A DNA stretch of 64,000 bases from a virus (lineage: Duplodnaviria; Heunggongvirae; Uroviricota; Caudoviricetes), in the IMG/VR virus record IMGVR_UViG_3300025644_000002. One strand, written 5' to 3'. Numbering within the stretch: the first letter of the stretch is position 1; each line of letters starts with the position of its first letter. Positions 27,192 to 53,610 of the stretch are shown here, one piece after another. The notes below the pieces were generated by a model that saw only the letters and a list, made by a program, of their open reading frames with translations, was not told the DNA's origin and did not search any database. Both the position numbers and the translations under genes were made by a program.

Positions 27192-27888
27192 TATGGGAGA
27201 CGGAACCCCACTAGGTGATCGTATGAAAGATTATGAAGCTACCTATAAATACAAGCTTCACAAAAGAATGCCAGTAATAATAAGAGTAGACGGTAGAGCG
27301 TTTCACACTCTTACAAGAAAATTATATGGAAGAGGATGGTCTACCGGATTCTCTGCAAATATGATGGAAACTGCTAGGGCTTCTATGGAAGATATGCAGT
27401 CAACAAAGTTTTGCTATGGTCAATCTGATGAGATCAGTTTTTTATTAACGGATTATAAAACTCATAACACACAGTCGTGGTTCAATAATTCCATACAGAA
27501 AATAGTATCAATTACAGCAGCTATCGTAAGCACTAACTTTTATTCAATAACTGGCGAAAAAGTGCAGTTTGATGCTAGAGCTTTTAATTTGGCAAAAGAT
27601 GAAGTGACAAACTATTATATCTGGAGACAACAAGATGCTATACGCAACGCTGTCCAGATGGTAGGAAGAGAGCATTTCTCTCAGAAAGAACTTCACATGA
27701 GAAGTGTTGAGAATATAAAACATCTTCTATCCAAAAAGATAGGAATTAATTTTGATGACTTCTCTAGTTTAAGACGACAAGGGTACTGTATAGACAATAA
27801 CCACCCAGATATGAATATCCCAGTGTTTGCCTCAGCTAGGGGTAAAGATTACATTGAAAAACATGTATATTTAATAGAAAATAATTAA
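27169..27888 (+). CDS. Thg1-like protein (tRNA-His guanylyltransferase family 3'-5' nucleotide polymerase)
   Basis: VIIRVDGRAFHTL ~ Thg1 VVVRLDGRNFHRF; CYGQSDEISFLL ~ AYGQSDEYSFVF; YYIWRQQDAIRNA ~ YLSWRQADCHINN. Confidence 0.7.
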   Translation: MKKRRLNNMGDGTPLGDRMKDYEATYKYKLHKRMPVIIRVDGRAFHTLTRKLYGRGWSTGFSANMMETARASMEDMQSTKFCYGQSDEISFLLTDYKTHNTQSWFNNSIQKIVSITAAIVSTNFYSITGEKVQFDARAFNLAKDEVTNYYIWRQQDAIRNAVQMVGREHFSQKELHMRSVENIKHLLSKKIGINFDDFSSLRRQGYCIDNNHPDMNIPVFASARGKDYIEKHVYLIENN

Positions 27889-33504: not shown

Positions 33505-33579
33505 GGGATGGTAAGCAAAATTGGTTAATGCGACAGGCTGCAACCCTGGACTGTGTCGGTTCGAATCCGACTCATCCCT
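33505..33579 (+). tRNA. tRNA-Cys (GCA)
   Basis: Hand fold: acceptor GGGATGG/TCATCCC, anticodon loop CTGCAAC, T-arm GTCGG-TTCGAAT-CCGAC. Confidence 0.65.
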
Positions 33580-33629
33580 CAATACTTACGATAAGTATTT
33601 TAATTAATAAAAATAATAAGGAACACAAA

Positions 33630-33809
33630 ATGAATTTTAAATTTTTCGGAGCATTAAGATTACTACTGAACTTCTTGACAGGAGTATTTGTAATAGCTGG
33701 AGGAATTATACTACCTAGTACTCCTATTACGATAGCGGGCTGCCTTTTATTAGCAGGGTGGTTAGCCGCGTTTATAGAACGTTACGATTCCCACTATAAA
33801 GGCTGCTAA
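33630..33809 (+). CDS. small membrane protein (MNFKFFGALRLLL…)
   Basis: Track ORF 33528..33809 starts inside the tRNA; likely ATG at 33630. Confidence 0.4.
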   Translation: MNFKFFGALRLLLNFLTGVFVIAGGIILPSTPITIAGCLLLAGWLAAFIERYDSHYKGC

Positions 33810-34123
33810 TGTTAACTACAACATTTACAGTTCACATAATACTAGTTGTATTGCTAGTTCATTGGGTAGCAGATTTCTTGTTTCAAACACAGGAAATGGC
33901 TTCAAAAAAACATGAACACTGGGGCATTCTAATTTTACATTGTGTAGTATATGCCACTGTATTGACGGCGTTTATAATGCTAGCGCCCTCTCTTGGCACA
34001 ATAATAACTATTTCATTAGGAAATGCAGCGCTATGCTGGTCTTTATTATTTATGTCACATTTATGGATAGACGCTGTTACTAGTAGAATAGTAAAAAAAA
34101 GCATTTGCTTTAAACAAAATTAG
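33809..34123 (+). CDS. membrane protein (104 aa)
   Basis: ORF track; multiple TM helices. Confidence 0.45.
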   Translation: MLTTTFTVHIILVVLLVHWVADFLFQTQEMASKKHEHWGILILHCVVYATVLTAFIMLAPSLGTIITISLGNAALCWSLLFMSHLWIDAVTSRIVKKSICFKQN

Positions 34124-34208
34124 GTTTATGTTTAATACTATAGGTTTTGACCAGTTCCTACATTTTGTAGCACTACTATTAATATTAACACTCATAATAT
34201 AAAAACTG

Positions 34209-34280
34209 TGGAGGCGTAGCTGAGTGGTTTAGCAGCGGCCCTTTAAGCCGCCGACGTAGGTTCGATTCCTACCGCCTTCA
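34209..34280 (+). tRNA. tRNA-Lys (TTT) with C33 instead of the universal U33 (anticodon loop CCTTTAA)
   Basis: Hand fold: acceptor GGAGGCG/CGCCTTC, D-stem GCTG/TAGC, anticodon stem GCGGC/GCCGC, T-arm GTAGG-TTCGATT-CCTAC. Confidence 0.6.
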
Positions 34281-34509
34281 CGCCCCCATTAAAAAGGAAC
34301 CAAATGAAAAAAAATAATTGTTTATAATCATGAGCATACAGTAGATGACGCTGTTGCCAAAAGATATGAAGAGTTAATGGATAATCTTCGAGAAGGTTAT
34401 GATAAACTATTAAATTCAGGAATGTTTTTTGAAATTTATCCAGAGCTTACAGGAAACTGGAAAGAAGATGAAGAGGCTTATTTAGCAAAATCAACCAATA
34501 AAAGATAAA

Positions 34510-34761
34510 ATGAAAAAGTCAATTACAATAAATGTGTATATGCAAGACGGAAGAGTATTCAAGTATGAAGTAAGTGATTCAGCAGTGGCTCGAGAGCATG
34601 CACATAGAATAATAACAGAAGGATGGCGTAACGTTGAAAATGGAATTATGAGTTATTATCCAGTTCATCAAGTATTAAAAGTAAGCTTTGAAATGGAAAA
34701 ACTGGATGTTTTAGCTGGTAAGTATCACGCCTCTTCCATTGATTATCCAAAAATGACCTAA
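34510..34761 (+). CDS. hypothetical protein (83 aa)
   Basis: ORF track. Confidence 0.4.
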   Translation: MKKSITINVYMQDGRVFKYEVSDSAVAREHAHRIITEGWRNVENGIMSYYPVHQVLKVSFEMEKLDVLAGKYHASSIDYPKMT

Positions 34762-34772
34762 TAAATTAAATC

Positions 34773-34845
34773 TGTAACGTAGCTCAATTGGTGGAGCGCT
34801 GCACTGTTAATGCAGTGGTTGCGAGTTCGAGTCTCGTCGTTACAG
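34773..34845 (+). tRNA. tRNA-Asn (GTT)
   Basis: Acceptor TGTAACG/CGTTACA is perfect; anticodon loop CTGTTAA. Confidence 0.7.
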
Positions 34846-34864
34846 CAATCAAAAAAGGAAACCT

Positions 34865-37142: not shown

Positions 37143-37170
37143 ATAAACGGGGTTTCGGCCCCGTTTTTCT
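37143..37170 (+). terminator. Rho-independent terminator (CGGGG…CCCCG + T5)
   Basis: acggggtttcggccccgtttttc. Confidence 0.5.
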
Positions 37171-37182: not shown

Positions 37183-38199
37183 ATGACTAGCAAAATAGAA
37201 GTAGATAAAAAACAAATTGATAAATTTAGGAAAAAAGAGATTACAAGTTCAGAATTATATAATAATAGTGAACCTGAAACTTTTTTATCCGAAGATAGCC
37301 AGAATAGCGCCCTACTCCCCGAAGATAAAAACCTAAATCTTGAAAACGTAACCTCTGGATATTTAACCAATGAACAAGGAACTTTTTTACCAGCTTCAGC
37401 TTTTGTAAAAATTTTACCAGCAGGGTATTATGAAGTATTAGAATCTAGAGGAGCCGCCGTAGAGTTCTTAAATATTGAGCTAGAAGCCTCGGACCTAATT
37501 TTATTTAGTAATTCAATAGCTGAAGAAATATTATTAGAATTAGGAAAATTTTGGAAACTTGGATCAGCTTATAAAGCTTGGGGAGAAAGCCATAAAAGAG
37601 GAATTCTAATTTATGGTGGAGACGGCTCAGGAAAAAATAGTACAATGAAAATAGTAATGTCAAATTGTATTCAAAAAGGATATTTAGTATTTGATAGCTC
37701 TTTTGTAGTATCAGAAGGTATTACTAGAATAAGAGATATTGAGGGGAATAGGCCCATACTTGTTATAATTGAAGACATTGACAGAATTATAATGGATCCA
37801 GTAGCTGAAGCAAAGATTCTGGATTTACTAGATGGAATAGGAGTAATAAATAATGTTGTATTTTTAGCTACAACTGCTTATCCAGAACGGCTTCCTACAT
37901 CTTTAAAAAATAGACCTTCGAGGTTTGACAGGGTTATGCACCAGGATTACCCAGATGAAATTACTCGTAAAAAATATTTACAATTAAAGAGTAGTTTAAA
38001 GGGTAAAGAATTAAATACTTGGGTAAAAGATACTAATAACTGGTCTTTCGCACATATTAAAGAACTCATAGTAAGCGTCATAATGTTAGATACAGATTAT
38101 AAAGTATCAATAGACAGAATTAATAAACTAAGGCAAGAGGTAGCTACGTCTGAAGTAGCAATTTCTTCTCATAATATAGGCTTTAAAACAAAAAGGTAA
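37183..38199 (+). CDS. AAA+ ATPase
   Basis: Walker A GGDGSGKNST, Walker B ILVIIEDID. Confidence 0.55.
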   Translation: MTSKIEVDKKQIDKFRKKEITSSELYNNSEPETFLSEDSQNSALLPEDKNLNLENVTSGYLTNEQGTFLPASAFVKILPAGYYEVLESRGAAVEFLNIELEASDLILFSNSIAEEILLELGKFWKLGSAYKAWGESHKRGILIYGGDGSGKNSTMKIVMSNCIQKGYLVFDSSFVVSEGITRIRDIEGNRPILVIIEDIDRIIMDPVAEAKILDLLDGIGVINNVVFLATTAYPERLPTSLKNRPSRFDRVMHQDYPDEITRKKYLQLKSSLKGKELNTWVKDTNNWSFAHIKELIVSVIMLDTDYKVSIDRINKLRQEVATSEVAISSHNIGFKTKR

Positions 38200-38202
38200 A
38201 TA

Positions 38203-39276
38203 ATGAATACAGTCCTAACAGTTTTAGAAACCCAAATAAAGGAAGGGTGGGTAAAGCGAAGAAAACATCCAGAGTTTCCACTTTGGATATATAATTATAC
38301 CCATGCCACACAGTATGCTCGAAATTGGAACGATACCACTACTAGATGTAGGGGTCTTATACTAGATGAATATGGAACTGTAGTAGCCAACCCTTTTAGA
38401 AAATTTTTCAACTATACAGAATTAGAAGGACTAGGTATCGAGCTCCCAGATGACCACTACAGCATTTTTAATAAACTAGACGGATGTCTATTTATAATGG
38501 TTATGTGGAGGGGGCATTTAATTAAATCTACAAGAGGCTCTTTTGATAATGAATATATTACAGAGGCCAATGTAGTCTTAGAAGAAAAATACCCTGACCT
38601 TACTATAAGGGAGGACTTCACATACTGCTATGAGTTCTTAACACCTACTCTTAAGAAAGGGGGGATGACCTGTATCACCTACCCAGAGAGCGACCTAAGG
38701 CTATTGGCAGTACGCGATACGTTTACTGGCAGAGAGATAGGGTTGCACGCTGTTACTACTTGTATACCAAGAACAGAGCTATATGAACATGATTGCGATG
38801 TAAGTGAGTTATATAATGTACCAAATCAAGAAAACAAAGAAGGATTTGTGTTAGCATATGATAACGGGTTCAGAGTTAAAGTAAAATTTGACTGGTATGT
38901 AAGACATCACCGTATATTGCAGCTTTGCAATGATAAAACGGTATGGAAATACTTATCAGATCCAGAATTAGATATACAAGAGTTAATTGATATTGTACCA
39001 GATGAATACTATAAATGGCTTCATACCTCTATAGATAACTTTAGAGAGAATTATGTGATATTAGCAAACACTGCTTGTAAACAATACATGCACCTTATAA
39101 CTAGTTTCCCAGAATCAATTGATATGAAAAAACGAACTTCCAAAGCAGTAGCAGAAAAAGTCATAAATATTGGAAATAAACAAATAATTTCTTTAGTATT
39201 TACAATGTTACAAGGGAAAAACATAAAGCCCTTAATTTGGAAATATTTAAAACCAAAACAAACGGAGAAAAAATGA
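38203..39276 (+). CDS. rnlA: RNA ligase 1 (T4 RnlA-like)
   Basis: Motif I FNKLDGCL; EGFVLAYDNGFRVKVKFDWYVRHH ~ T4 Rnl1 [24 protein letters not shown]. Confidence 0.65.
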   Translation: MNTVLTVLETQIKEGWVKRRKHPEFPLWIYNYTHATQYARNWNDTTTRCRGLILDEYGTVVANPFRKFFNYTELEGLGIELPDDHYSIFNKLDGCLFIMVMWRGHLIKSTRGSFDNEYITEANVVLEEKYPDLTIREDFTYCYEFLTPTLKKGGMTCITYPESDLRLLAVRDTFTGREIGLHAVTTCIPRTELYEHDCDVSELYNVPNQENKEGFVLAYDNGFRVKVKFDWYVRHHRILQLCNDKTVWKYLSDPELDIQELIDIVPDEYYKWLHTSIDNFRENYVILANTACKQYMHLITSFPESIDMKKRTSKAVAEKVINIGNKQIISLVFTMLQGKNIKPLIWKYLKPKQTEKK

Positions 39277-39437
39277 AAAATCCCGGATTCATACTATTTA
39301 TAGTATTACTTGTCCTAAAGTTAGTTGGAGTCATTACATGGAGTTGGTGGTGGATAACTGCCCCGCTGTGGCTTGGCTTCGTCTTATTATTTTTAGCTGT
39401 AGGCGGTATAGCTGCAATTGCAAGTTGGCTCGATTAG
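39237..39437 (+). CDS. small membrane protein
   Basis: ORF track; two TM helices. Confidence 0.4.
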   Translation: MEIFKTKTNGEKMKNPGFILFIVLLVLKLVGVITWSWWWITAPLWLGFVLLFLAVGGIAAIASWLD

Positions 39438-39939
39438 ATATTTACTAATACTACTCACAAATATATGTTTATGCGTTGGAGCCTTACCTGAGGAATGGAA
39501 AGCTTTAACAAGCCATCAACAAGAATCAATACGGGCATCCTATGAATATGGGGTGCCCTTTGATTTAGGGTGGACATTAGCTGCTATTGAGTGGCAAGAA
39601 TCTGCAGGAGGTAAATACCTTGTAAATTTGCAAGACCCTTCCGCAGGAGCTCACCATATCAATATCAACACATATATGAGTAGACATAGAGATGAGATAG
39701 AGGACACACCCTTTAATAGGAATGTAGTGGCCCAATGGCTCATAGATAGTCACATACTTAGTTGTAGAGAAGCAATAACTGAACTAACCTATTGGAAGAA
39801 TGAGAGACATAATGGTAGCTGGTCCAAAACTGTAAGATCCTACAGGGCGGGCAATCGCTGGGAGTCTCCAGCAGGTTGGCAATATTATAAAAGTATAACA
39901 GCCAGAATAAACTTTTTAAAACAAGAATGGAAATTATAA
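39418..39939 (+). CDS. hypothetical protein (173 aa)
   Basis: ORF track. Confidence 0.45.
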   Translation: MQVGSIRYLLILLTNICLCVGALPEEWKALTSHQQESIRASYEYGVPFDLGWTLAAIEWQESAGGKYLVNLQDPSAGAHHININTYMSRHRDEIEDTPFNRNVVAQWLIDSHILSCREAITELTYWKNERHNGSWSKTVRSYRAGNRWESPAGWQYYKSITARINFLKQEWKL

Positions 39940-39940
39940 A

Positions 39941-41005
39941 ATGAGACATTTAGCAACAATCCAACTCATAGCTAATTTAGAGCCTATCTCTGGAGCAGAT
40001 GTAATTGAAAAAGCAACTGTAAAAGGCTGGCATCTAGTAGTTAAGAAGGGGGAATTTCAAATAGGTGATAAATGCGTCTACTTTGAAGTGGACTCTTTGT
40101 TGCCAGAAATAGAGCCGTTTGAATTCTTAAAGAAAAACGGTGTCAAAACAATAGATGACGGCACAAGAGGTTATCGCTTACGAACTATAAAATTGCGTAA
40201 GCAAATTAGTCAAGGGCTAGCCATGCCATTAGATACTTTCGAAGAGCTCGCCGATGGCCCCGAAGTGGGAACAGACGTAAGTGAACTTTTGAAAGTAGTA
40301 AAATATGAAGCACCCATTCCAGCATGCTTAAGTGGCCAGATTAAAGGCCACAGACCTTCCTGGATTCCTAAGACGGATGAAGAACGTGTACAGAATCTTG
40401 TAGATGAAATAAAAGAATGGGCAGGAACAGAGTGCTACATAACAGAGAAATTAGATGGATCGTCATCTACCTTTTATTATGCACCTAACTACCGAAAAGC
40501 AACACCTTTCGGAGTATGCAGTCGGAAGCTTGACCTAATAGAGAATGACAAAAATTCTTTCTGGAAAGTCGCTAGAGATATTGACGCAGAAGAGAAAATG
40601 TCTAAACTTGGTATAAATGTAATTTTCCAAGGAGAATTACTGGGGCCAGGGATTCAGAAAAATAAATACAAATTGTCTGCTACAGAAGTAAAAATGTTTA
40701 ACGCTTTTACTATACAAGATGGTGGCTTTGGAAGTATTGAGAGCTTTCTAAATCTTATATTTGGGGACTACACAACTGAGGGGGAAGTTCGCGTACGAGG
40801 GTTAGATAGAATATTTAATACTGTACCTGTCCTTAATCCAAAGATGGTGTTAAACCATACAGTAGACGAATTAGTAGAGCTTTCTAAAGGCCCAAGCCTT
40901 CTAAATCCTGATATCCCAAGAGAGGGAATTGTGATTAGAGCGAGAGATGGTAGCTTTAGTTTTAAAGTAATTAACCCTGACTTCTTAATTAAGTTTGGAG
41001 AATAA
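39941..41005 (+). CDS. rnlB: RNA ligase 2-like nucleotidyltransferase (Rnl2 family) with an extra N-terminal domain
   Basis: Motif I TEKLDGSS; FQGELLGPGIQKNKYKL ~ T4 Rnl2 FGEFAGPGIQKNVDY; motifs EGIVIR and SFKVINPDF. Confidence 0.6.
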   Translation: MRHLATIQLIANLEPISGADVIEKATVKGWHLVVKKGEFQIGDKCVYFEVDSLLPEIEPFEFLKKNGVKTIDDGTRGYRLRTIKLRKQISQGLAMPLDTFEELADGPEVGTDVSELLKVVKYEAPIPACLSGQIKGHRPSWIPKTDEERVQNLVDEIKEWAGTECYITEKLDGSSSTFYYAPNYRKATPFGVCSRKLDLIENDKNSFWKVARDIDAEEKMSKLGINVIFQGELLGPGIQKNKYKLSATEVKMFNAFTIQDGGFGSIESFLNLIFGDYTTEGEVRVRGLDRIFNTVPVLNPKMVLNHTVDELVELSKGPSLLNPDIPREGIVIRARDGSFSFKVINPDFLIKFGE

Positions 41006-41389
41006 ATGAAAAGTAACCAGCTTTTAAAAACACTGAAAGATGGCGATATAGTATTAATGGTGCTTCCTGGGTTATATGAGCCTTCAGTGTTAGAGATATG
41101 CCAACTCAAAAATACTAAATTCATTCCAAAGGGTGAGGGGCGCTCTTTCGACTGGTTAGACTTTGACTCTGACACTTTGTATGTAAATACTCGCGTACAT
41201 AGTTCACAGTTAGGTGAATCAGCTGGAAACTGTTTGTCAATAACAGAAGTGATAGCTCCCGAGCATCTTGAACAATTTGCACGAAATAAAGATATGTGGA
41301 AAGCATCTTTATACCAATACTCTGACGTTGAGTACAAACACGCCCAGAGTACGGCGGAGAGTTCTATAAAGTTATGGGATAGAGACTAA
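41006..41389 (+). CDS. hypothetical protein (127 aa)
   Basis: ORF track. Confidence 0.45.
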   Translation: MKSNQLLKTLKDGDIVLMVLPGLYEPSVLEICQLKNTKFIPKGEGRSFDWLDFDSDTLYVNTRVHSSQLGESAGNCLSITEVIAPEHLEQFARNKDMWKASLYQYSDVEYKHAQSTAESSIKLWDRD

Positions 41390-41413
41390 GCCATAAATAA
41401 AAGGAAATACAAA

Positions 41414-42328
41414 ATGAGACAAGTAATAATACTACGGGGGTTACCCGCAAGCGGTAAGACTTCGTATGCCGTAGATATGATGGATAAAATGCCAGATACA
41501 TACAAACGTGTAAATAGGGATAGTCTACGAAGCATGGTTGATGGTGGAGTATACTCTAAAGGAAATGAGAAAATAATTAAAGCAATTAGAGACTCTTTAA
41601 TCTTTAGATACTTAGATGCCGGAAGATCAGTATTCGTAGATGATACAAACTTACACAGCTCAAATGAGGAGCATATTAGAAAAATAGTGGCGGACTATAA
41701 CATTTTACGGGAAGTTAAGCACGACGTATTAGTTGTGGTTAGAGAATTCCCTACAGATGTATTTGATGCCATTGATCGAGACGCATTACGTACAGGATCG
41801 GCCCATGTAGGCTCTAAAGTTATTTATGATATGTACAGTAGGTTTCTAAAGAAAGATGAGCCTCACGACTATCCTGAGCCTCCAGGCACGGTTGAGTTGG
41901 TAGACGGCTTACCTAAGGCAATCATTTGTGACTTAGACGGCACGATGGCATTCCTTAAAGGCCGTAACCCTTATGACGCCTCTACTTGTGAGAACGATAC
42001 TTACAATGCGATTTTGGGGGAAATTCTTCACGTTATGGACAAACAGGGATACCAAATAATCTTTTTATCTGGAAGATCGGAAAAATACCTTTCAGAAACT
42101 AGACAGTTTTTGAAAGCAAACCTTCCGTTTCCTCATTGGAAGATGTTCATGAGACCATTGTTTGAGCATAATATAAGAGATTCAATTCTTAAACGCAAAC
42201 TTTATGATGAACACGTTAAAGATAAATACAACGTATTTTGCGTGTTTGATGATAGAGACCAAGTAGTTGGTCTATGGCGTAAAGACTTAGGTCTACAATG
42301 TTTCCAAGTAAACTACGGAAACTTCTAA
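41414..42328 (+). CDS. pnk: polynucleotide kinase / 3'-phosphatase (T4 Pnk-like)
   Basis: N-terminal P-loop GLPASGKTS; C-terminal HAD motif ICDLDGT. Confidence 0.65.
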   Translation: MRQVIILRGLPASGKTSYAVDMMDKMPDTYKRVNRDSLRSMVDGGVYSKGNEKIIKAIRDSLIFRYLDAGRSVFVDDTNLHSSNEEHIRKIVADYNILREVKHDVLVVVREFPTDVFDAIDRDALRTGSAHVGSKVIYDMYSRFLKKDEPHDYPEPPGTVELVDGLPKAIICDLDGTMAFLKGRNPYDASTCENDTYNAILGEILHVMDKQGYQIIFLSGRSEKYLSETRQFLKANLPFPHWKMFMRPLFEHNIRDSILKRKLYDEHVKDKYNVFCVFDDRDQVVGLWRKDLGLQCFQVNYGNF

Positions 42329-47100: not shown

Positions 47101-47140
47101 AGGCCCGGCGATCACTCGCTGGGTCTTTTTTTTAACAATT
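47101..47140 (+). terminator. Rho-independent terminator (CCCGGCGA…TCGCTGGG + T9)
   Basis: ggcccggcgatcactcgctgggtcttttttttaac. Confidence 0.5.
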
Positions 47141-47161: not shown

Positions 47162-47839
47162 ATGAGATTATTAATGAGAGCGTTAGTAGGAAGTAGATTG
47201 CATGGGTTAGATACTCCTATAAGTGATTTCGATTATAAAACTGTATTTATTGAGACTACTTCAAATATTTTAGCTTTACCAGAGCACCAGCCCAGCGATC
47301 CAAAGGATCCAGCAGATACCTGGGAATTAGCTAGATTTCTACATTTCGCATTAAGAAGTAATCCTACAATTCTGGAAACTTTTAAAGCGACATTTACTAC
47401 AGAAAACGAGAACTGGTGTGAAGAGTTAAGAAGTCTATTTCCAGACGTTTGGAGTTCTAAATTAGTTTTCCACTCGTACAGGGGTTATGCTCAATCGCAA
47501 CGCAAAAAGCTTTTAGAAAATGATGAAGCCCTTAGTAATGGAAATGTAGAATTAGATACCATTAGAAAAAGAAAATCATCAGCGGCCTGGTTAAGAATGT
47601 TATATAATGGATACGAACTATTACAAACTGGCGATTTTACAGCCAGAATAGCTGATACAGAAGTAGGCATTCTTTGCAGAAAATATAAGGAAGGCGAATC
47701 TACTATACCAGAGGTTATAAAAACTTGTAGCTCTTGGGAAGAAAAACTAGAAGACGCGTTTAATAAGTCTACAAAAAAAGAAGCTAACTCAAAATTAGTA
47801 AATGATTTTCTATTAAAAATAAGAAAAGTTTCTTGGTAA
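47162..47839 (+). CDS. minimal nucleotidyltransferase (Pol-beta superfamily)
   Basis: GSRLHGLDTPISDFDY matches GS…SDxD. Confidence 0.45.
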   Translation: MRLLMRALVGSRLHGLDTPISDFDYKTVFIETTSNILALPEHQPSDPKDPADTWELARFLHFALRSNPTILETFKATFTTENENWCEELRSLFPDVWSSKLVFHSYRGYAQSQRKKLLENDEALSNGNVELDTIRKRKSSAAWLRMLYNGYELLQTGDFTARIADTEVGILCRKYKEGESTIPEVIKTCSSWEEKLEDAFNKSTKKEANSKLVNDFLLKIRKVSW

Positions 47840-47840: not shown

Positions 47841-47911
47841 GCGGCTATCGTCTAATGGTAGGACACAACCTTGCCATGGTTGGAATGTCGGTTCAAATCC
47901 GTCTAGCTGCT
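47841..47911 (+). tRNA. tRNA-Gly (GCC)
   Basis: Acceptor GCGGCTA/TAGCTGC, anticodon loop TTGCCAT. Confidence 0.65.
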
Positions 47912-47932
47912 CAAATAAATAGAAAGGGCAAC

Positions 47933-48202
47933 ATGAGTTATAAACACAATCAACGACAACACGCTGTAAAAAGATTTGAAGAGCGTTATGATATTACGTT
48001 GACCAAAAAGCTAAGAAAAGAATTATTGAATAGAATTAGGAACGAGTATAACGACCAAGGAGTAAGCGTTCTAGAAAAAGTAGGACACAGGTTAGTTATG
48101 ATTATTGAGCAAAATAGCATTAGATACAAAGTAGTATATGATAAGAAAACTAATGAAATTGTCACAGCTTTACCAATTAAAGCGGCTATGGTCCAACGGT
48201 AA
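47933..48202 (+). CDS. hypothetical protein (89 aa, MSYKHNQRQHAVKRFEERYDI…)
   Basis: Track ORF 47855..48202 begins inside the tRNA; ATG at 47933. Confidence 0.45.
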   Translation: MSYKHNQRQHAVKRFEERYDITLTKKLRKELLNRIRNEYNDQGVSVLEKVGHRLVMIIEQNSIRYKVVYDKKTNEIVTALPIKAAMVQR

Positions 48203-48252
48203 GACTTCTGACTTCCACTCAGACGATGAGAGTTCGATTCTCTCTAGTTGCT
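48182..48252 (+). tRNA. tRNA-Gly (TCC)
   Basis: Acceptor GCGGCTA/TAGTTGC (two GU pairs), anticodon loop CTTCCAC; overlaps the 3' end of the preceding CDS. Confidence 0.6.
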
Positions 48253-48274
48253 CAAATAAAACCAATAAAAAACA

Positions 48275-48670
48275 ATGGCAAGTTATGAAAAGAAAACAGT
48301 TAAAATAATAATAGCACACCCGTATGATTATGATGATCTAGAAGGAAAACTTGAAGACGTACAAGAGGTACTAAGGCACATCATAGCTCTTTCTAGACAA
48401 CAGACAGGGGTAGACAACCCAGATGTGAGGTTTACCGCAGTTTGTAGCCAGTTCAACTCGTGGGACGATAGGATAGAGCTCGACGAATTAGAGGTTAGCG
48501 TGAGTCGAAAAGAGACGGATGAGGAATTTACTATTAGAACGAATGTATTAAAAGATAGAGCAAAAAAATCTGAAATAACTAGAAAGCGAAACGCGACAAG
48601 ACGGAAGAATAAGAAAGAAAAAGACGATTTTGAGCTTTATAAACAATTGGAAAAAAGATTTAAAAAATAA
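48275..48670 (+). CDS. hypothetical charged protein (131 aa)
   Basis: ORF track. Confidence 0.45.
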   Translation: MASYEKKTVKIIIAHPYDYDDLEGKLEDVQEVLRHIIALSRQQTGVDNPDVRFTAVCSQFNSWDDRIELDELEVSVSRKETDEEFTIRTNVLKDRAKKSEITRKRNATRRKNKKEKDDFELYKQLEKRFKK

Positions 48671-48679
48671 GGAAAGCTA

Positions 48680-48919
48680 ATGTCACAAAAATCAAACTCT
48701 AACAAACAGGGTAGAGACAAAATAAAATGCCAACGATACCTGGGGCGTGAAACACGGGAAATGAACATAGCAAGACGAATTGTAAAATTTGCAACAAGCA
48801 AACCAGGGCACAAAGGTAAAGAGGTTAAAATTGCGTTACATATGGCTAGTCAAAATAAACAGCCTGTAATTACAAAACTACATGTAAATCGTATTTTAAA
48901 ACAAAAGAACCTTCTATAG
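48680..48919 (+). CDS. small basic protein (79 aa)
   Basis: ORF track. Confidence 0.4.
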   Translation: MSQKSNSNKQGRDKIKCQRYLGRETREMNIARRIVKFATSKPGHKGKEVKIALHMASQNKQPVITKLHVNRILKQKNLL

Positions 48920-48956
48920 AAGATTCTAGTTTTTTGACATAGAGAGAAAAAATTAA

Positions 48957-49029
48957 TGGGGGCTCATCCAACGTAAAGGACGTCTGCAGAGGCAGGCGAA
49001 TGTGGGTTCAAATCCCACACCCCCAACCA
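48957..49029 (+). tRNA. tRNA-like gene with encoded ACCA, a canonical T-arm, and a 7-bp CGTCTGC/GCAGGCG + AGAG tetraloop hairpin in place of the anticodon arm
   Basis: TGGGGGC…ACCCCCA-A-CCA; GTGGG-TTCAAAT-CCCAC; no 5+7+5 anticodon arm can be folded. Confidence 0.35.
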
Positions 49030-49031
49030 AC

Positions 49032-49103
49032 GCCGTGGTCGTCTAATGGTAAGACGCTCTTAGTCCGCTAAGAGAAATGGAGGTTCAACTCCTTCCCTAG
49101 GCT
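49032..49103 (+). tRNA. tRNA-like gene with a non-canonical anticodon arm (CTCTT-AGTCCGCT-AAGAG, 8-nt loop, or a 6-bp stem with 6-nt loop)
   Basis: D-arm TCGTCTAATGGTAAGACG, T-arm GGAGG-TTCAACT-CCTTC, acceptor GCCGTGG/CCTAGGC with 2 mismatches. Confidence 0.35.
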
Positions 49104-49112
49104 CTAATTTAT

Positions 49113-49185
49113 AGGGTGGAAGTGTTAATGGTAACACGCCGGCCTGTCACGCCGGAGACTGCGGGTTCGATCCCCGTGCGCTCTG
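49113..49185 (+). tRNA. tRNA-Asp (GTC)
   Basis: Anticodon arm CCGGC-CTGTCAC-GCCGG; acceptor AGGGTGG/GCGCTCT (2 GU pairs, 1 mismatch). Confidence 0.6.
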
Positions 49186-49210
49186 CGAAATAAAAAGAAA
49201 GGACAACGTT

Positions 49211-49447
49211 ATGATGGGAATTATAGTACTTCTCATACCAGTGGGAATTATATTTGGGCTTGGAACTATGTTCCTAGTAATGTCGCTAATGCCAAAGTAT
49301 ACAAAGAAAGCCGGATGGGCAAAAACATATGGACTAGCTTGTTATGCCATTTGTGGAATCGTGTGGTATCTTTTAATACTTTCATGGGCCGAATCAGAAG
49401 TAGTCATGGCAGAAGAAGAAAAACAAGCAACAGAACAAACAGAATAA
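49211..49447 (+). CDS. small membrane protein (78 aa)
   Basis: ORF track; two TM helices. Confidence 0.45.
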   Translation: MMGIIVLLIPVGIIFGLGTMFLVMSLMPKYTKKAGWAKTYGLACYAICGIVWYLLILSWAESEVVMAEEEKQATEQTE

Positions 49448-49453
49448 ATTAAT

Positions 49454-49527
49454 GGGGTTGTAGCTCAGTCTGGGAGAGCAACTGCTTTGCACGCAGAGGG
49501 TCAGGGGTTCAAATCCCCTCTTCTCCA
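49454..49527 (+). tRNA. tRNA-Ala (TGC)
   Basis: Anticodon loop TTTGCAC; D-arm TAGCTCAGTCTGGGAGAGC; acceptor GGGGTTG/CTTCTCC has T5-T68 and T6-T67 mismatches. Confidence 0.55.
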
Positions 49528-49539
49528 CTCATTAATAAC

Positions 49540-49611
49540 GGCGCATTCGTCTAATGGCTAGGACACCAGGTTTTCAGTCTGGGTACAGGAGTTCGATTCT
49601 CCTATGCGCTA
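49540..49611 (+). tRNA. tRNA-Glu (TTC)
   Basis: Anticodon arm CCAGG-TTTTCAG-TCTGG; acceptor GGCGCAT/ATGCGCT. Confidence 0.65.
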
Positions 49612-49637
49612 CGAAGGTAACAAACCAGAAAAATAAA

Positions 49638-49874
49638 ATGACAAGACAGAAGAATTTATGTGGAAAGACCAGACCTCTTGACAACCCATATGAAATATGG
49701 AGAACTTTAGATCAGTCTTGGGAATGGAAAGTTTTAAAAAAATGGCAAATAGATGATAACAAAGAAGGCGCTAGATGGTTTTGCGGAGTTAAGTCTCCCT
49801 ATACTTATGGCAGCTATGAATTGGGAGATGTATTTGTACATGAAATAATAGCGGTAGCTAGGAAAGTTAGGTAG
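49638..49874 (+). CDS. hypothetical protein (78 aa)
   Basis: Track ORF 49554..49874 begins inside tRNA-Glu; ATG at 49638. Confidence 0.4.
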   Translation: MTRQKNLCGKTRPLDNPYEIWRTLDQSWEWKVLKKWQIDDNKEGARWFCGVKSPYTYGSYELGDVFVHEIIAVARKVR

Positions 49875-49886
49875 CTAAATAGGTTT

Positions 49887-49959
49887 AGTGCGGTGACCGG
49901 GGGCGAGGCTCTTGGGTTTTGGAAACCTGGGAAGGTGGGTTCGACGCCCACTCGTGCTA
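49887..49959 (+). tRNA. tRNA-Pro (TGG) with an aberrant D-arm
   Basis: 73 nt fits standard numbering; anticodon arm TGGGT-TTTGGAA-ACCTG; T-arm GTGGG-TTCGACG-CCCAC; D-stem does not pair. Confidence 0.45.
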
Positions 49960-49981
49960 CAGAAAAAAAAGAGAAATAATT

Positions 49982-50167
49982 ATGAAACAAGAAACTAAAG
50001 ATAAAATTACTACCGGGCTTTTCCAAGTAATTGACACCTTTTTAAAAGGAGTACTATTCGGAATAAATACCCGTATAGCCCCAAAAATGACATGCCATAG
50101 TTGCGGACTATTAGCAACCAAAGTTTATAAAGGACGCTGGGAGTGTGAGTGCGGGAGACGTTGGTAA
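49982..50167 (+). CDS. small zinc-ribbon protein
   Basis: CHSCG…CECG; track ORF 49919..50167 begins in tRNA-Pro. Confidence 0.4.
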   Translation: MKQETKDKITTGLFQVIDTFLKGVLFGINTRIAPKMTCHSCGLLATKVYKGRWECECGRRW

Positions 50168-50388
50168 TGAATAAATTAACTCAAGAGGAAATGAAAACCC
50201 TCTTTCAAACAACAAATAAAATGGGACTAAACAACCCCCTCTGGAGACGTGGGCAATGTATTTTTAATGCACTTTATATACTTTATCCGGAAGTAGCAGA
50301 AGAGATTAGAGCTACAGCAATGGATCCATTTTACCAGGATAGTAGAATAGCTGCCTGTATAAACCACATTACAAAGGATGAAGGATGA
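50149..50388 (+). CDS. hypothetical protein (79 aa)
   Basis: ORF track. Confidence 0.4.
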   Translation: MRETLVMNKLTQEEMKTLFQTTNKMGLNNPLWRRGQCIFNALYILYPEVAEEIRATAMDPFYQDSRIAACINHITKDEG

Positions 50389-51092
50389 AAAATAAAATAT
50401 TTGTACTGGGAGACGTACATGGTAATTACCAGGGCATGCTCCAATGTTTCGAACGTTCTAACTTCAATTATGAGGAGGATACATTAGTCTTTCTTGGCGA
50501 TATAAATGACGGGTGGCCAGATACGGCAAAGTGTTTCGAAGAACTTTTAAAGATTAAGAATTTAATATAGGTTATAGGTAATCACGACGTATGGCTACTT
50601 GGGTGGTTAGAATATGGACAAACTCCCTCATTGTGGACTAGACAAGGTGGTATGGCTACAATTGCCAGCTACGTGTCAGCCCCACTAGAATGGAGAACTA
50701 AGCACCTACATTATCTACGTAACAAAACAGTATTTTACCACATCGATGATGAGAACAAAATCTACGTACACGGAGGATTCGATCAAAAGGTCCCTATCCG
50801 GGATCAGGATCCGTATAATTTGTATTGGAATCGTCACATCATTGAAGTGGCAAAAATTTACGTAACTCAAAAGCGTGAATTTAAAGATTATAAAGAGGTA
50901 TTCGTTGGGCATACAACTACAGGAATGTTTGGAACGGATAAACCTTTAAATATTTCCAATCTATGGATGTTAGACACCGGATCAGGTTGGGAAGGAAAAC
51001 TTACTATCATGGATGTAAATACGCATGAGTACTGGCAATCAGACTTATCAGAAGATTTATATCCGAACGACTACCATGGAAGAGAACGATAA
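50385..51092 (+). CDS. ApaH / PP-lambda-type metallophosphoesterase interrupted by a single in-frame TAG (50568-50570)
   Basis: Motif 1 GDVHG and motif 2 FLGDINDGWPD lie before the TAG; motif 3 VIGNHD lies immediately after it in the same frame; VHGG and GHT follow. Track ORFs 50385..50570 and 50631..51092 are the two halves. Confidence 0.6.
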
Positions 51093-51099
51093 TTAAGTT

Positions 51100-51182
51100 G
51101 GGCAGCTGGCCGAGCGGTCAAAAGCGCCAGATTGTAGATCTGGTCCCTACGGGGTTCGGAGGTTCGAATCCTTCTCTGCCCA
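51100..51182 (+). tRNA. tRNA-Tyr (GTA), class II
   Basis: Anticodon arm CCAGA-TTGTAGA-TCTGG; long variable arm; acceptor GGGCAGC. Confidence 0.65.
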
Positions 51183-51213
51183 CACTTTTAAATAATAAAA
51201 ATCAAACTAACAA

Positions 51214-51675
51214 ATGAAAAACACAAACCAAATAATTTTCTCCGCAAAGAAGCCATCAGGCTATGATCAATATTTTTCTAATTTTGCACATTCCCCTATT
51301 ACTATAGAAGGTATTGAATATCCAACAGTAGAGCATGCGTTTCAAGCACATAAAACATTTAATAACACAATACGTAAAGAAATAGCACAGTTAAAAACCC
51401 CTGGCAAATCTAAACGTGCGGGTAATAAAGTAAATCTTCGCCCAGATTGGGAAGAAGTAAAATATGACATTATGGTTATGTGCTTAAGAGAAAAATTCAA
51501 AATAGATCTTTACAAAAAGATTTTACTATGTACACAAGATGCAGAATTAATAGAAGACGCGGCTGAATGGAACGACGCAATATGGGGCATCGGAAAAAAT
51601 GGTAAAGGTACAAACCTTTTAGGAAAAGCATTAATGAAAGTAAGAAAGGAACTAAAAGAAAATGAATGGAAGTAA
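51214..51675 (+). CDS. NADAR-domain protein (YbiA-like)
   Basis: EYPTVEHAFQAHK…W…NLLGKALMKVR matches the NADAR/DUF1768 signature. Confidence 0.55.
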   Translation: MKNTNQIIFSAKKPSGYDQYFSNFAHSPITIEGIEYPTVEHAFQAHKTFNNTIRKEIAQLKTPGKSKRAGNKVNLRPDWEEVKYDIMVMCLREKFKIDLYKKILLCTQDAELIEDAAEWNDAIWGIGKNGKGTNLLGKALMKVRKELKENEWK

Positions 51676-51997: not shown

Positions 51998-52135
51998 TGA
52001 GTGAGGTTATACTACCTTTAGAAGCTACCATAGATGAGGATTTACAACTTATTTTGGAAACCAAATTTGGAAATGGCAGACTAACCCTTACAGATATACT
52101 TCTATTACAAATTTGTAGAAAACTCGATAAACTTA

Positions 52136-53574: not shown

Positions 53575-53576
53575 AT

Positions 53577-53606: not shown

Positions 53607-53610
53607 TAGA

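What the first reader, a model, noticed from the sequence alone, without database searches (positions are those of the whole stretch)
37183..42328. Complete RNA repair cassette: AAA+ ATPase, Rnl1-like, Rnl2-like and Pnk
The 37183-42328 block encodes an AAA+ ATPase, a T4 RnlA-like ligase (motif I KLDG, motifs IV and V matching T4), an Rnl2-family ligase (GPGIQKN block) with an added N-terminal domain, and a T4-type kinase-phosphatase. Together with the Thg1-like protein, TrmH and the PTH2-like protein, this is an unusually complete tRNA maintenance toolkit. It implies the host uses tRNA-cleaving immunity.
Basis: partly seen in the sequence, partly recalled or inferred. Interest (0 to 1): 0.6.

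Follow-up and report, generated by a model that had tools for sequence, protein, structure and literature searches.

The report
Jumbo-phage tRNA break-repair gene cluster
A large phage carries intact genes for the classic T4-style kit that heals and re-joins cut tRNAs (an end-healing kinase-phosphatase and two RNA ligases) inside its tRNA gene array, a known counter-defence; the neighbouring AAA+ ATPase shows no link to it.

Summary
Window 38203-42328 encodes three RNA-repair enzymes with intact active sites.

- **Rnl1-family ligase (38203-39276):** the closest solved relative by sequence and fold is T4 Rnl1.
- **Second ligase (39941-41005):** this is Rnl5 (DraRnl/NgrRnl type), not Rnl2. It has an N-terminal OB domain and no C-terminal domain, matches NgrRnl at E 6.5e-68, and passes the TIGR02306 cutoff.
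- **Pnkp (41414-42328):** a T4/Pnkp1-type kinase-phosphatase.

The block is not a tight four-gene cassette. Three ORFs with no established RNA-repair role interrupt it.

The AAA+ gene (37183-38199) is a YjoB-like AAA protein. It was not next to an RNA ligase or Pnkp in any of the 7 homologue loci examined. It is also the only one of 120 family members with changed Walker A (GKT/S to GKN) and sensor-1 (Asn to Ala) residues.

The Rnl5-Rnl1-Pnkp trio recurs next to a tRNA array in an unrelated viral contig (L017). Rnl1-Pnk pairs are annotated in actinophages.

Further repair genes lie outside the block: RlaP, SAK-HAD, Thg1-like and a SpoU methylase, plus 22 tRNAs. No PTH2 was found.

Such toolkits are already described for T4 and for jumbo phages, so this is a new member of a known kind. 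Host tRNA-cleaving immunity is plausible but only inferred.

The parts
38203..39276 (+). Rnl1-family ATP-dependent RNA ligase (357 aa). Predicted nucleophile K91 in motif I KLDG; all-helical C-terminal domain.
   Evidence: PF09511 E 1.3e-11 and phrog_562 E 1.8e-52. T4 Rnl1 PDB 2c5u E 1e-14. TIGR02308 at 72 bits, below the equivalog cutoff of 242, but aligned over 29-339 vs profile 33-348/373. T4 Rnl1 residues R54, K75, F77, K99, D101, G102, E159, E227, G228, K240, K242 are all conserved; K119 is Arg. AF2 model pLDDT 92. Best PDB folds are T4 Rnl1 at E 1e-18; the next best (Rnl3, Trl1) are at 1e-9.
39941..41005 (+). Rnl5-family (DraRnl/NgrRnl-type) nick-sealing RNA ligase (354 aa): N-terminal OB domain plus nucleotidyltransferase domain, no C-terminal domain. 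Predicted nucleophile K170.
   Evidence: PF21189 E 2.2e-35 plus PF09414 E 2.8e-18, and phrog_968 E 1.8e-73. NgrRnl 5cot E 6.5e-68 over residues 2-351. TIGR02306 RNA_lig_DRB0094 at 198 bits, above the cutoff of 151. All 12 NgrRnl active-site residues are conserved (residue list from PMC7261155).
41414..42328 (+). Bifunctional polynucleotide 5'-kinase / 3'-phosphatase (Pnkp, 304 aa), T4/Pnkp1 type: P-loop kinase plus HAD (DxDGT) phosphatase.
   Evidence: PF25109 E 3e-42 plus PF13671, and phrog_505 E 2.6e-74 over the full length. Pnkp1 4xrp E 7.5e-42 and T4 Pnkp 1ltq E 3.5e-27 over 1-304. Kinase residues G9, K15, T16, D36, R39, R122, R126 and phosphatase residues D173, D175, T177, R184, S219, R221, D256, K260, D279, D280 are all conserved against T4.
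37183..38199 (+). YjoB-like classic AAA+ protein (338 aa) with atypical Walker A (GGDGSGKN, N152) and sensor-1 (A232). Adjacent to the ligase, but its membership of the repair set is not supported.
   Evidence: PF00004 E 8.7e-9. YjoB 7w42 E 1.4e-18. Among 120 family members it is the only one with N at the GK[T/S] position and A at sensor-1 Asn. It is not next to an RNA ligase or Pnkp in L001-L003 and L006-L009.
39237..39437 (+). Small predicted membrane protein (66 aa from the TTG start; gene callers aa from 39273). Interspersed; no RNA-repair link.
   Evidence: phrog_1374 E 5.5e-16, unknown function. Called as 54 aa on the public contig L005.
39418..39939 (+). T4 Vs.1-like protein (173 aa), possibly a lytic transglycosylase. 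Interspersed; no RNA-repair link.
   Evidence: phrog_600 E 2.4e-34. tblastn hits in 889 phages, including RB14 vs.1 and Aeromonas phage AP1 'transglycosylase SLT domain protein'.
41006..41389 (+). 127-aa protein of a small family of unknown function. It starts directly after the Rnl5 stop codon. Its link to RNA repair is unproven.
   Evidence: No Pfam, PHROG, NCBIfam or PADLOC hit. 33 cluster representatives at E<=1e-3. One homologue lies two genes downstream of an HNH-Rnl2-type ligase, with Rnl1 and RlaP nearby (L026). Four other family members examined (P0124, P0125, P0128, P0130; six mostly short contigs, L029-L034) show no ligase nearby. AF2 pLDDT is only 64.
47162..47839 (+). RlaP (RNA-ligase-associated Pol-beta nucleotidyltransferase). 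A likely accessory that restores nucleotides lost from the 3' end before ligation.
   Evidence: PF10127 E 8.2e-22. Function as in PMC12776372 and PMC7824862.
54162..54665 (+). Stand-alone 'Swiss-army-knife' HAD phosphatase associated with RNA repair.
   Evidence: PF18143 HAD_SAK_2 E 5.7e-26.
27169..27888 (+). Thg1-like 3'-5' nucleotidyltransferase (repair of tRNA 5' ends, or addition of G-1).
   Evidence: PF04446 E 6.1e-23.
59667..60218 (+). SpoU/SPOUT-class RNA 2'-O-methyltransferase; target unknown.
   Evidence: PF00588 E 1.6e-17. Only weak, sub-threshold NCBIfam hits to TrmJ, RlmB and TrmL.
33505..34846 (+). tRNA-Cys(GCA), tRNA-Lys(UUU) and tRNA-Asn(GUU) genes just upstream of the block.
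   Evidence: ARAGORN; Rfam RF00005.
47841..63272 (+). Dispersed array of 19 further tRNA genes downstream of the block, interleaved with protein-coding genes. It includes a tRNA with anticodon CUA at 62186-62262.
   Evidence: ARAGORN; Rfam.
37145..37166 (+). Terminator-like GC-rich hairpin plus T-run, just before the AAA+ gene. It may mark the start of a transcription unit.
   Evidence: Pattern scan. The overall count is not above the shuffled expectation, so this is weak evidence.
47101..47126 (+). Terminator-like hairpin plus T8, between ORF 46650-47036 and RlaP.
   Evidence: Pattern scan; weak evidence.

Best explanation
This is a T4-type RNA (tRNA) heal-and-seal pathway carried by a jumbo phage. 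It lies in a counter-defence island that also holds a large tRNA set.

Proposed mechanism:
1. A host or competitor ribonuclease cuts a tRNA, typically in the anticodon loop. This leaves 2',3'-cyclic-phosphate (or 3'-phosphate) and 5'-OH ends.
2. Pnkp (41414-42328) removes the 3' phosphate with its HAD domain and phosphorylates the 5'-OH with its P-loop kinase domain.
3. The Rnl1-family ligase (38203-39276) self-adenylylates at K91, transfers AMP to the 5'-phosphate and seals the single-stranded loop break.
4. The Rnl5 ligase (39941-41005) seals 3'-OH/5'-PO4 nicks where the 3'-OH strand is RNA in a duplex. It takes the place that the nick-sealing Rnl2 holds in T4, and could handle breaks in tRNA or rRNA stems.
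5. RlaP (47162-47839), the SAK-HAD phosphatase (54162-54665) and the Thg1-like enzyme (27169-27888) plausibly trim or refill damaged ends.
6. The phage tRNAs replace what cannot be repaired.

The AAA+ gene and the three small interspersed ORFs are neighbours, not demonstrated components.

Shown here: family membership, intact catalytic residues, gene order, and recurrence of the trio elsewhere. Inferred: the substrates (tRNA), the division of labour between the two ligases, and the existence of a host nuclease.
For: - Family assignments come from independent libraries and from solved structures.
- Every catalytic residue checked is conserved: 12/12 for Rnl5, 11/12 plus one Lys-to-Arg for Rnl1, and 17/18 for Pnkp plus a conservative Ser16-to-Thr change.
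- The AF2 model of the Rnl1 protein (pLDDT 92) matches T4 Rnl1 best, E 1e-18 over the whole length.
- An unrelated high-GC viral contig (L017) has Rnl5-Rnl1-97aa-Pnkp contiguous. They lie directly after a 19-tRNA array and before an ORF that looks Ro/TROVE-like to my eye, which was not tested with any tool.
- Annotated phages pair the closest Rnl1 relatives with polynucleotide kinase: Arthrobacter phage Bauer gp70/gp71, and Streptomyces phage LukeCage gp207/gp210 inside a tRNA array.
- Fusions link the kinase to Rnl1: phrog_8238 matches both proteins, and P0194 is an AAA_33+Rnl1 fusion.
- In Flavobacterium reichenbachii a 36%-identical Rnl1 homologue sits beside the Hen1 / PNKP_ligase / Pnkp1 repair genes.
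- Rnl5 biochemistry is taken from PMC4408790 and PMC7261155.
- The T4 precedent is Amitsur et al. 1987, as cited in PMC4408790. The jumbo-phage survey is PMC7824862.
Against: - There is no experimental data for these proteins.
- The host and any host anticodon nuclease are unknown.
- The Rnl1 protein is a distant family member (72 bits against an equivalog cutoff of 242). Its substrate preference could therefore differ from that of T4 Rnl1.
- Rnl5 enzymes have no established physiological substrate. The one genetic phenotype is radiation sensitivity in Deinococcus (PMC5397189).
- In 13 of 14 IMG/VR loci Rnl5 is not next to Rnl1 or Pnkp within the DNA available. The trio is therefore a recurrent module, not an obligate one.
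- Three unrelated ORFs interrupt the block.
Confidence: 0.8

Rival explanations
1. One reading: a four-component cassette in which the AAA+ ATPase is a working part of RNA repair, for example by remodelling damaged tRNA, ribosome or nuclease complexes, or by loading the ligase.
For: The AAA+ stop codon is 3 nt from the Rnl1 start, on the same strand. A terminator-like hairpin lies just upstream of the AAA+ gene, so the two genes may be co-transcribed.
Against: In 7 loci that carry homologues (30-43% identity) the AAA+ gene is not next to an RNA ligase or Pnkp. This includes L006, a related phage that shares several 54-75%-identical genes with the window. The independent trio in L017 has no AAA+ gene. 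The AAA gene near RNA-repair genes in L026 is clamp-loader-like and belongs to a different family. The window copy alone has GKN in Walker A and Ala at sensor-1, which suggests impaired hydrolysis. Phage genes are tightly packed in any case.
Confidence: 0.07
2. Pnkp and Rnl5 mainly serve nucleic-acid end repair that is unrelated to tRNA. Examples are healing DNA ends, or sealing nicks at RNA-DNA junctions (primers, ribonucleotide-containing or R-loop intermediates) during replication of a very large genome. Only Rnl1 would act on tRNA.
For: NgrRnl and DraRnl seal nicks with an RNA 3'-OH strand on DNA or RNA templates. Loss of DraRnl sensitises Deinococcus to ionising radiation (PMC4408790, PMC5397189). 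From background knowledge, T4 Pnkp also acts on DNA ends. Most Rnl5 loci in IMG/VR lack adjacent Rnl1 or Pnkp.
Against: Here Rnl5 sits between Rnl1 and Pnkp within a tRNA / RNA-repair island. The same three genes are contiguous next to a tRNA array in L017. No replication genes were identified in the flanking region.
Confidence: 0.1
3. The enzymes mature or maintain the phage's own unusual tRNAs (end trimming, joining of processing intermediates) and do not counter a host nuclease.
For: The window has 22 tRNA genes. Some are atypical: tRNA-His of 88 nt and tRNA-Thr of 85 nt with long variable arms, one tRNA with an undetermined anticodon, and a CUA suppressor. Thg1-like and SpoU enzymes are tRNA-maturation types.
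Against: No protein-spliced introns or split or permuted tRNA genes were detected. The T4 precedent and the RlaP and SAK-HAD companions point to damage repair (PMC7824862, PMC12776372).
Confidence: 0.03

Closest known systems
Bacteriophage T4 tRNA repair pathway (Pnkp/PseT plus Rnl1/gp63, which counters the PrrC anticodon nuclease), together with T4 Rnl2
   Same: The same two-step chemistry and the same enzyme families for healing (a bifunctional kinase / HAD phosphatase, aligned end to end with T4 Pnkp) and for sealing (an Rnl1-family ligase with conserved motifs I, III, IV and V and a helical C-domain). As in T4, there is also a second, nick-sealing ligase.
   Different: The second ligase is Rnl5 (N-terminal OB domain), not Rnl2 (C-terminal domain). 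From background knowledge the T4 genes are dispersed, whereas here the genes are clustered within 4.1 kb inside a tRNA array. Sequence identity to the T4 proteins is low: about 20% in the structural alignment for Rnl1, and 99 bits for Pnkp.
Rnl5 family: Deinococcus radiodurans DraRnl (DRB0094) and Naegleria gruberi NgrRnl
   Same: Full-length collinear alignment, the OB plus NTase architecture, all 12 active-site residues, and a pass of the TIGR02306 cutoff.
   Different: Phage-encoded and embedded between Rnl1 and Pnkp. It carries an insertion of about 16 residues in the region 264-290 relative to NgrRnl. Its physiological substrate is unknown, as for the whole family.
Jumbo-phage RNA-repair and tRNA-provisioning repertoires (Iyer et al. 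2021, Viruses 13:63, PMC7824862)
   Same: The same inventory: many tRNAs, combinations of ATP-dependent RNA ligases, PNK-HAD, SAK-HAD, RlaP, Thg1 and NAD+ salvage enzymes.
   Different: That survey groups the ATP-dependent RNA ligases as Rnl1 and Rnl2 and does not name Rnl5 in the passages retrieved. This phage has no close relative in the isolate collection (DNA hits cover 3% or less of the block). PTH2 was not found here.
Bacterial Pnkp1-Rnl-Hen1 RNA repair system (Capnocytophaga gingivalis; PMC4411300)
   Same: The window Pnkp's best solved relative is Pnkp1 (E 7.5e-42). In Flavobacterium reichenbachii a 36%-identical Rnl1 homologue lies directly upstream of the Hen1, PNKP_ligase and Pnkp1 genes.
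   Different: The window has no Hen1 and no PNKP_ligase (Rnl4-type) gene. The ligases here are Rnl1 and Rnl5. The only 2'-O-methyltransferase candidate is an unlinked SpoU-type enzyme.
Actinophage RNA ligase / polynucleotide kinase pairs (e.g. Arthrobacter phage Bauer gp70/gp71, Streptomyces phage LukeCage gp207/gp210)
   Same: These hold the closest isolate-phage relatives of both the Rnl1 (30-32% identity) and the Pnkp (35-37%). The genes are adjacent or near-adjacent, and in LukeCage they lie inside a tRNA array.
   Different: No Rnl5 is annotated in those stretches. The hosts and genome sizes differ.

Membership tests
Rnl1 family (T4 RnlA type) | Nucleotidyltransferase motifs I (KxDG, with the lysine nucleophile), III, IV and V | tested here: met
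   K91-L-D93-G94, E144, E213-G214 and K226/K228 align with T4 K99, D101, G102, E159, E227, G228, K240 and K242. They are invariant in 48 clade members.
Rnl1 family (T4 RnlA type) | Rnl1-specific upstream elements (T4 R54, K75, F77) and the all-helical C-terminal domain | tested here: met
   R50, K67 and F69 are conserved. The TIGR02308 alignment reaches profile position 348/373. The AF2 model has helices only over 230-349, and T4 Rnl1 is the top fold match over about 380 columns at E 1e-18. TM is only 0.57, which is consistent with a different relative orientation of the domains.
Rnl1 family (T4 RnlA type) | Scores above the curated equivalog threshold | tested here: not met
   TIGR02308 at 71.9 bits against a cutoff of 242. 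It does pass the Pfam PF09511 gathering score (45.2 vs 28.3). It is a family member, but not an equivalog of T4 RnlA.
Rnl1 family (T4 RnlA type) | Seals single-strand breaks in the tRNA anticodon loop | not testable with these tools
   Needs biochemistry.
Rnl5 family (DraRnl/NgrRnl) | N-terminal OB-like domain followed by an NTase domain, with no C-terminal appendage | tested here: met
   PF21189 over 4-97 plus PF09414 over 164-344 of 354 aa. Collinear with NgrRnl over 2-351.
Rnl5 family (DraRnl/NgrRnl) | Active-site residues of the two-metal adenylylation mechanism (NgrRnl R4, D53, K121, T145, R149, K170, D172, R190, E227, F248, E312, K326) | tested here: met
   All 12 are conserved: R2, D51, K121, T145, R149, K170, D172, R195, E232, F253, E328, K342. 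The residue list is from PMC7261155.
Rnl5 family (DraRnl/NgrRnl) | Curated family threshold | tested here: met
   TIGR02306 RNA_lig_DRB0094 at 198.1 bits against a cutoff of 151.15.
Rnl5 family (DraRnl/NgrRnl) | Seals duplex nicks that have an RNA 3'-OH strand | not testable with these tools
   Needs biochemistry.
   No T4 Rnl2 chain among the PDB sequence hits at E<=1. Only the motif III block GE..GPGIQKN (33 aa) aligns to a T4 Rnl2 sequence recalled from memory. The protein ends about 10 residues after motif V, so it has no C-domain.
T4-type Pnkp (bifunctional 5'-kinase / 3'-phosphatase) | N-terminal P-loop kinase with T4 K15, S16, D35, R38 and R126 | tested here: met
   K15, T16, D36, R39 and R126. 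The list of essential residues comes from my knowledge of the Shuman-lab mutagenesis work.
T4-type Pnkp (bifunctional 5'-kinase / 3'-phosphatase) | C-terminal HAD/DxDxT phosphatase with T4 D165, D167, R176, R213, D254, D277 and D278 | tested here: met
   D173-L-D175-G-T177, R184, R221, D256 and D279-D280. PF25109 HAD_PNKP E 3e-42 over the full profile.
Classic AAA+ ATPase (active enzyme) | Walker A GxxxxGK[T/S], Walker B acidic pair, sensor-1 Asn, arginine finger(s) | tested here: inconclusive
   Walker A Lys (K151), Walker B E197-D198, and R244/R247 are present. However, the GK[T/S] position is Asn152 and sensor-1 is Ala232. Both are unique among 120 family members (70 T / 49 S / 1 N, and 119 N / 1 A). 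The fold membership is clear. Catalytic competence is doubtful.
RNA-repair cassette membership of the AAA+ gene | Conserved gene-neighbourhood linkage to RNA ligase or Pnkp | tested here: not met
   0 of 7 homologue loci have a ligase or Pnkp next to the AAA+ gene. L009 holds a truncated AAA_33 kinase-like ORF about 6 kb upstream, which was not tested as a polynucleotide kinase. The sample is small.

The most novel reading that the evidence does not exclude
Rnl1 + Rnl5 + Pnkp would form a dedicated three-enzyme phage module that recurs next to tRNA arrays in unrelated lineages. In it, Rnl5 would have a specific and so far unknown role in tRNA or rRNA stem-nick repair. That would give the Rnl5 family its first physiological substrate. 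In this phage the module may also have recruited new accessory proteins: the 127-aa family member that starts directly after the Rnl5 stop codon, and/or the hydrolysis-impaired AAA+ protein acting as a scaffold or sensor.
Probability: 0.12. Interest if true: 0.55.

Novelty: new member of a known kind. Interest (0 to 1): 0.3.

Why it matters
It adds a clean, compact example from an uncultivated jumbo phage (contigs up to 212 kb, seen in many metagenomes) of the T4-style answer to tRNA-cleaving immunity.

It also shows that Rnl5 ligases, whose biological role is still open, can occupy the 'second ligase' slot beside Rnl1 and Pnkp. The contiguous Rnl5-Rnl1-Pnkp trio in a second, unrelated viral contig makes that pairing a testable lead for Rnl5 function.

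Two practical corrections follow. The ligase should be annotated as Rnl5, not Rnl2. The AAA+ gene should not be annotated as an RNA-repair factor.

The sequence links of Rnl1 and Pnkp to the Bacteroidota Pnkp1-Rnl-Hen1 neighbourhood, and the 36% GC, hint at a Bacteroidota host.

Tried and rejected
1. **DNA-level relatives among isolated phages.** Only two short hits of about 130 nt, inside Rnl5.
2. **IMG/VR scans with single proteins.** The AAA+, Rnl1 and Pnkp queries found nothing usable. Only the Rnl5 query returned loci.
3. **AAA+ linkage.** Seven homologue loci were inspected and none supports linkage. The 'AAA' near RNA-repair genes in L026 turned out to be clamp-loader-like.
4. **The 127-aa ORF as a possible ligase accessory.**
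   - The word-index search found only one distant relative. It lies in a ligase-rich locus.
   - The exhaustive profile search found a family of about 30 members.
   - Four further members show no ligase nearby, on mostly short contigs.
   - The AF2 model was too poor (pLDDT 64) to justify a fold search.
   - A family alignment was too diverse for the search for related loci.
   - Linkage is left unproven.
5. **The 173-aa ORF.** It is T4 Vs.1-like, not RNA repair.
6. **The 287-aa ORF after Pnkp.** It is a weak nicotinamidase match, so it belongs to NAD salvage, not RNA repair.
7. **PTH2.** Not found by Pfam or NCBIfam scans of 30 small ORFs, nor by tblastn with two Pth2 sequences recalled from memory.
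8. **PADLOC.** No meaningful hits for the flanking genes.
9. **Rfam.** Only tRNAs; no Y-RNA-like or tmRNA partner.
10. **Promoter and terminator scan.** Counts are not above the shuffled expectation. Only two intergenic hairpins are noted.

Full report
**What is there.** Between 37183 and 42328 the + strand carries seven back-to-back ORFs:
- 37183-38199, 338 aa
- 38203-39276, 357 aa
- 39237/39273-39437, a small membrane protein
- 39418-39939, 173 aa
- 39941-41005, 354 aa
- 41006-41389, 127 aa
- 41414-42328, 304 aa

The window is AT-rich (about 36% GC) and holds 22 tRNA genes. Three lie just upstream of the block and 19 downstream; Rfam finds nothing but tRNAs. The exact Rnl1 and AAA proteins occur on dozens of public metagenomic contigs, the longest 211,738 bp, with the same gene order. 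The source is therefore an uncultivated jumbo phage. It has no close relative among isolated phages.

**The three repair enzymes.**

*Pnkp (41414-42328).* It matches HAD_PNKP (E 3e-42), a P-loop kinase domain and phrog_505 (E 2.6e-74) over its full length. It aligns end to end with Capnocytophaga Pnkp1 (4xrp, E 7.5e-42) and T4 Pnkp (1ltq, E 3.5e-27). All kinase and phosphatase residues I checked against T4 are conserved, including the P-loop K15/T16, D36, R39, R126 and the DxDGT nucleophile D173.

*Rnl1 (38203-39276).* It is an Rnl1-family ligase: PF09511, phrog_562 at E 1.8e-52, and T4 Rnl1 at E 1e-14. The motif I lysine K91 and the T4-essential positions are conserved and invariant in 48 clade members. 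It is a distant member, at 72 bits against the TIGR02308 equivalog cutoff of 242. An AF2 model built on 48 homologues (pLDDT 92) has an all-helical C-terminal domain. It hits T4 Rnl1 nine orders of magnitude better than Rnl3 or Trl1 ligases.

The GPGIQKN block it noticed is real, and it does resemble motif III of T4 Rnl2, but that is all that aligns (using a T4 Rnl2 sequence recalled from memory as a probe). Four results place the protein in the Rnl5 family:
- It has the PHA02142 OB domain followed by the PF09414 NTase domain, and no C-terminal domain.
- It aligns over its full length with Naegleria NgrRnl (E 6.5e-68), with no T4 Rnl2 hit at E<=1.
- It passes the curated DraRnl model TIGR02306 (198 vs 151 bits).
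- It keeps all 12 active-site residues of the NgrRnl two-metal mechanism (residues from PMC7261155).

An N-terminal domain in place of a C-terminal one is exactly what defines Rnl5 (PMC4408790). Rnl5 enzymes seal duplex nicks whose 3'-OH strand is RNA.

**The AAA+ gene.** It is a genuine classic-clade AAA protein. Its closest solved relative is B. subtilis YjoB. Two results argue against counting it as a repair component.

First, its neighbourhood is not conserved. It is not beside a ligase or Pnkp in three huge-phage genomes (LR756511, LR756500, LR756508) or on four metagenomic contigs with 37-42% identical homologues. One of these, L006, comes from a related phage that shares several 54-75%-identical genes with the 57-63 kb part of this window. 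There the AAA gene sits among those genes instead.

Second, in an alignment of 120 family members the window protein is the only one with Asn instead of Thr/Ser after the Walker A lysine. It is also the only one with Ala instead of the sensor-1 Asn. From general AAA+ knowledge these positions coordinate Mg2+ and the attacking water. I therefore infer that this copy binds ATP but hydrolyses it poorly. This inference is not tested.

**The interspersed ORFs.**
- The 173-aa protein is a homologue of T4 Vs.1. It is annotated in one phage as an SLT transglycosylase.
- The small protein is a membrane peptide of phrog_1374.
- The 127-aa protein starts at the base after the Rnl5 stop codon. It belongs to a small family of stand-alone proteins with no known domain. 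One homologue lies two genes downstream of an HNH-fused Rnl2-type ligase in a locus that also has Rnl1 and RlaP. Four other family members (six loci) show no ligase on their mostly short contigs. The structure prediction was too weak to use. I leave its function open.

**Evidence that the trio is a functional unit.**
- An unrelated, high-GC IMG/VR contig (L017) has Rnl5, Rnl1, a 97-aa ORF and Pnkp contiguous. They lie directly after 19 tRNA genes and before an ORF that looks Ro/TROVE-like by eye, which I did not test.
- The nearest Rnl1 and Pnkp relatives among isolated phages are adjacent in Arthrobacter phage Bauer. In Streptomyces phage LukeCage they lie two genes apart inside a tRNA array.
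- Kinase-Rnl1 fusions exist (phrog_8238; P0194).
- In Flavobacterium reichenbachii a 36%-identical Rnl1 homologue lies directly upstream of Hen1, the PNKP_ligase-type Rnl and a Pnkp1-type gene. This is the neighbourhood of the characterised Pnkp1-Rnl-Hen1 repair system (PMC4411300).

**Wider toolkit.**
- RlaP (47162-47839), which adds nucleotides to damaged RNA 3' ends (PMC12776372)
- a Swiss-army-knife HAD phosphatase (54162-54665)
- a Thg1-like enzyme (27169-27888)
- an RNase T-like exonuclease (30811-31338)
- a SpoU-class methylase (59667-60218) that cannot be assigned to TrmH

**Mechanism.** The best-supported reading is the T4 paradigm. A ribonuclease cuts tRNA. Pnkp heals the 2',3'-cyclic-phosphate/5'-OH ends to 3'-OH/5'-phosphate. 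Rnl1 seals loop breaks. Rnl5 takes the slot of the nick-sealing second ligase that Rnl2 holds in T4. RlaP, SAK-HAD and Thg1 deal with eroded ends, and the phage tRNAs back the system up. Family membership, intact catalytic sites and recurrent gene linkage are shown. Substrates, the division of labour and the existence of a host nuclease are inferred.

**Comparison with what is known, and verdict.** Iyer et al. (2021, PMC7824862) already describe this inventory as typical of many jumbo phages: tRNAs, combinations of ATP-dependent ligases, PNK-HAD, SAK-HAD, RlaP, Thg1 and NAD+ salvage. PMC4408790 notes Rnl5 homologues in phages. The finding is therefore a new member of a known kind, with three corrections:
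1. The second ligase is Rnl5, not Rnl2.
2. The AAA+ gene is not a supported component, and it may be catalytically degenerate.
3. The block is interrupted, not a compact cassette.

The modestly new points are the recurrence of a contiguous Rnl5-Rnl1-Pnkp trio next to tRNA arrays, and the sequence ties to the Bacteroidota Pnkp1-Rnl-Hen1 neighbourhood.

Noticed in passing
window 42383-43246, 51214-51675, 52429-53574, 55714-56505, 56505-57098, 57098-57634: A full Preiss-Handler NAD+ salvage set is scattered through the tRNA array. It comprises a weak nicotinamidase-like protein (PDB 2h0r E 0.0095; WPPHC and SHC motifs), NADAR, NAPRTase, NAD synthase NadE, a Nudix hydrolase and a NadD-like adenylyltransferase. 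It is probably a counter to NAD+-depleting host defences.
   Followed up: partly
window 37183-38199: The AAA+ protein is the only one of 120 family members with Walker A GKN (instead of GKT/S) and Ala at sensor-1 (instead of Asn). The exact sequence occurs on 46 contigs, so this is not a sequencing error. It may be a pseudo-ATPase.
   Followed up: yes
window 43277-46637: Three consecutive genes right after the nicotinamidase-like gene: a 254-aa protein that looks vWA-like by motif only (no HMM hit), a PP2C phosphatase (PF13672 E 5e-13), and a 563-aa protein with a weak protein-kinase match (PF00069 E 2e-4, below threshold). This may be a signalling or conflict triad.
   Followed up: partly
window 62186-62262; L017 8206-8281 (- strand): A tRNA with anticodon CUA (an amber-suppressor type; ARAGORN labels it 'Pyl') is present in the window and also in the unrelated contig L017. 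This hints at TAG read-through or recoding in part of the phage genome.
   Followed up: no
window 53611-53784: Adjacent tRNA-Thr(UGU) (85 nt) and tRNA-His(GUG) (88 nt) have unusually long variable arms. The tRNA-His gene encodes G-1 and the CCA end, although the phage also encodes a Thg1-like enzyme.
   Followed up: partly
window 49032-49104: ARAGORN reports a tRNA with an undetermined two-base anticodon ('cc'). Rfam scores it only 38 bits.
   Followed up: no
window 30811-33427: An RNase T / DnaQ-like exonuclease is followed by two tandem SPFH/Band-7 proteins, just upstream of the first tRNAs. A DnaQ-like exonuclease also sits in the tRNA/ligase region of Streptomyces phage LukeCage.
   Followed up: no
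L035 (Flavobacterium reichenbachii MUHF01000022) 6001-10792: The bacterial gene order is Rnl1-like, then Hen1_N, PNKP_ligase and Pnkp1-like. An Rnl1-family ligase thus accompanies the Pnkp1-Rnl-Hen1 repair genes, giving that neighbourhood two different ligases.
   Followed up: partly
L026/L027 2744-20118: A second low-GC phage contig holds a different RNA-repair neighbourhood: Rnl1, an HNH-fused Rnl2-type ligase, an R2K ATP-grasp protein, the 127-aa family member, a stand-alone AAA_33 kinase, RlaP and Nudix.
   Followed up: partly
window 36288-37139: A 283-aa ORF upstream of the AAA+ gene has a C-terminal CxxC...CxxC zinc-ribbon-like motif and no hit in Pfam, PHROGs, NCBIfam or PADLOC.
   Followed up: partly
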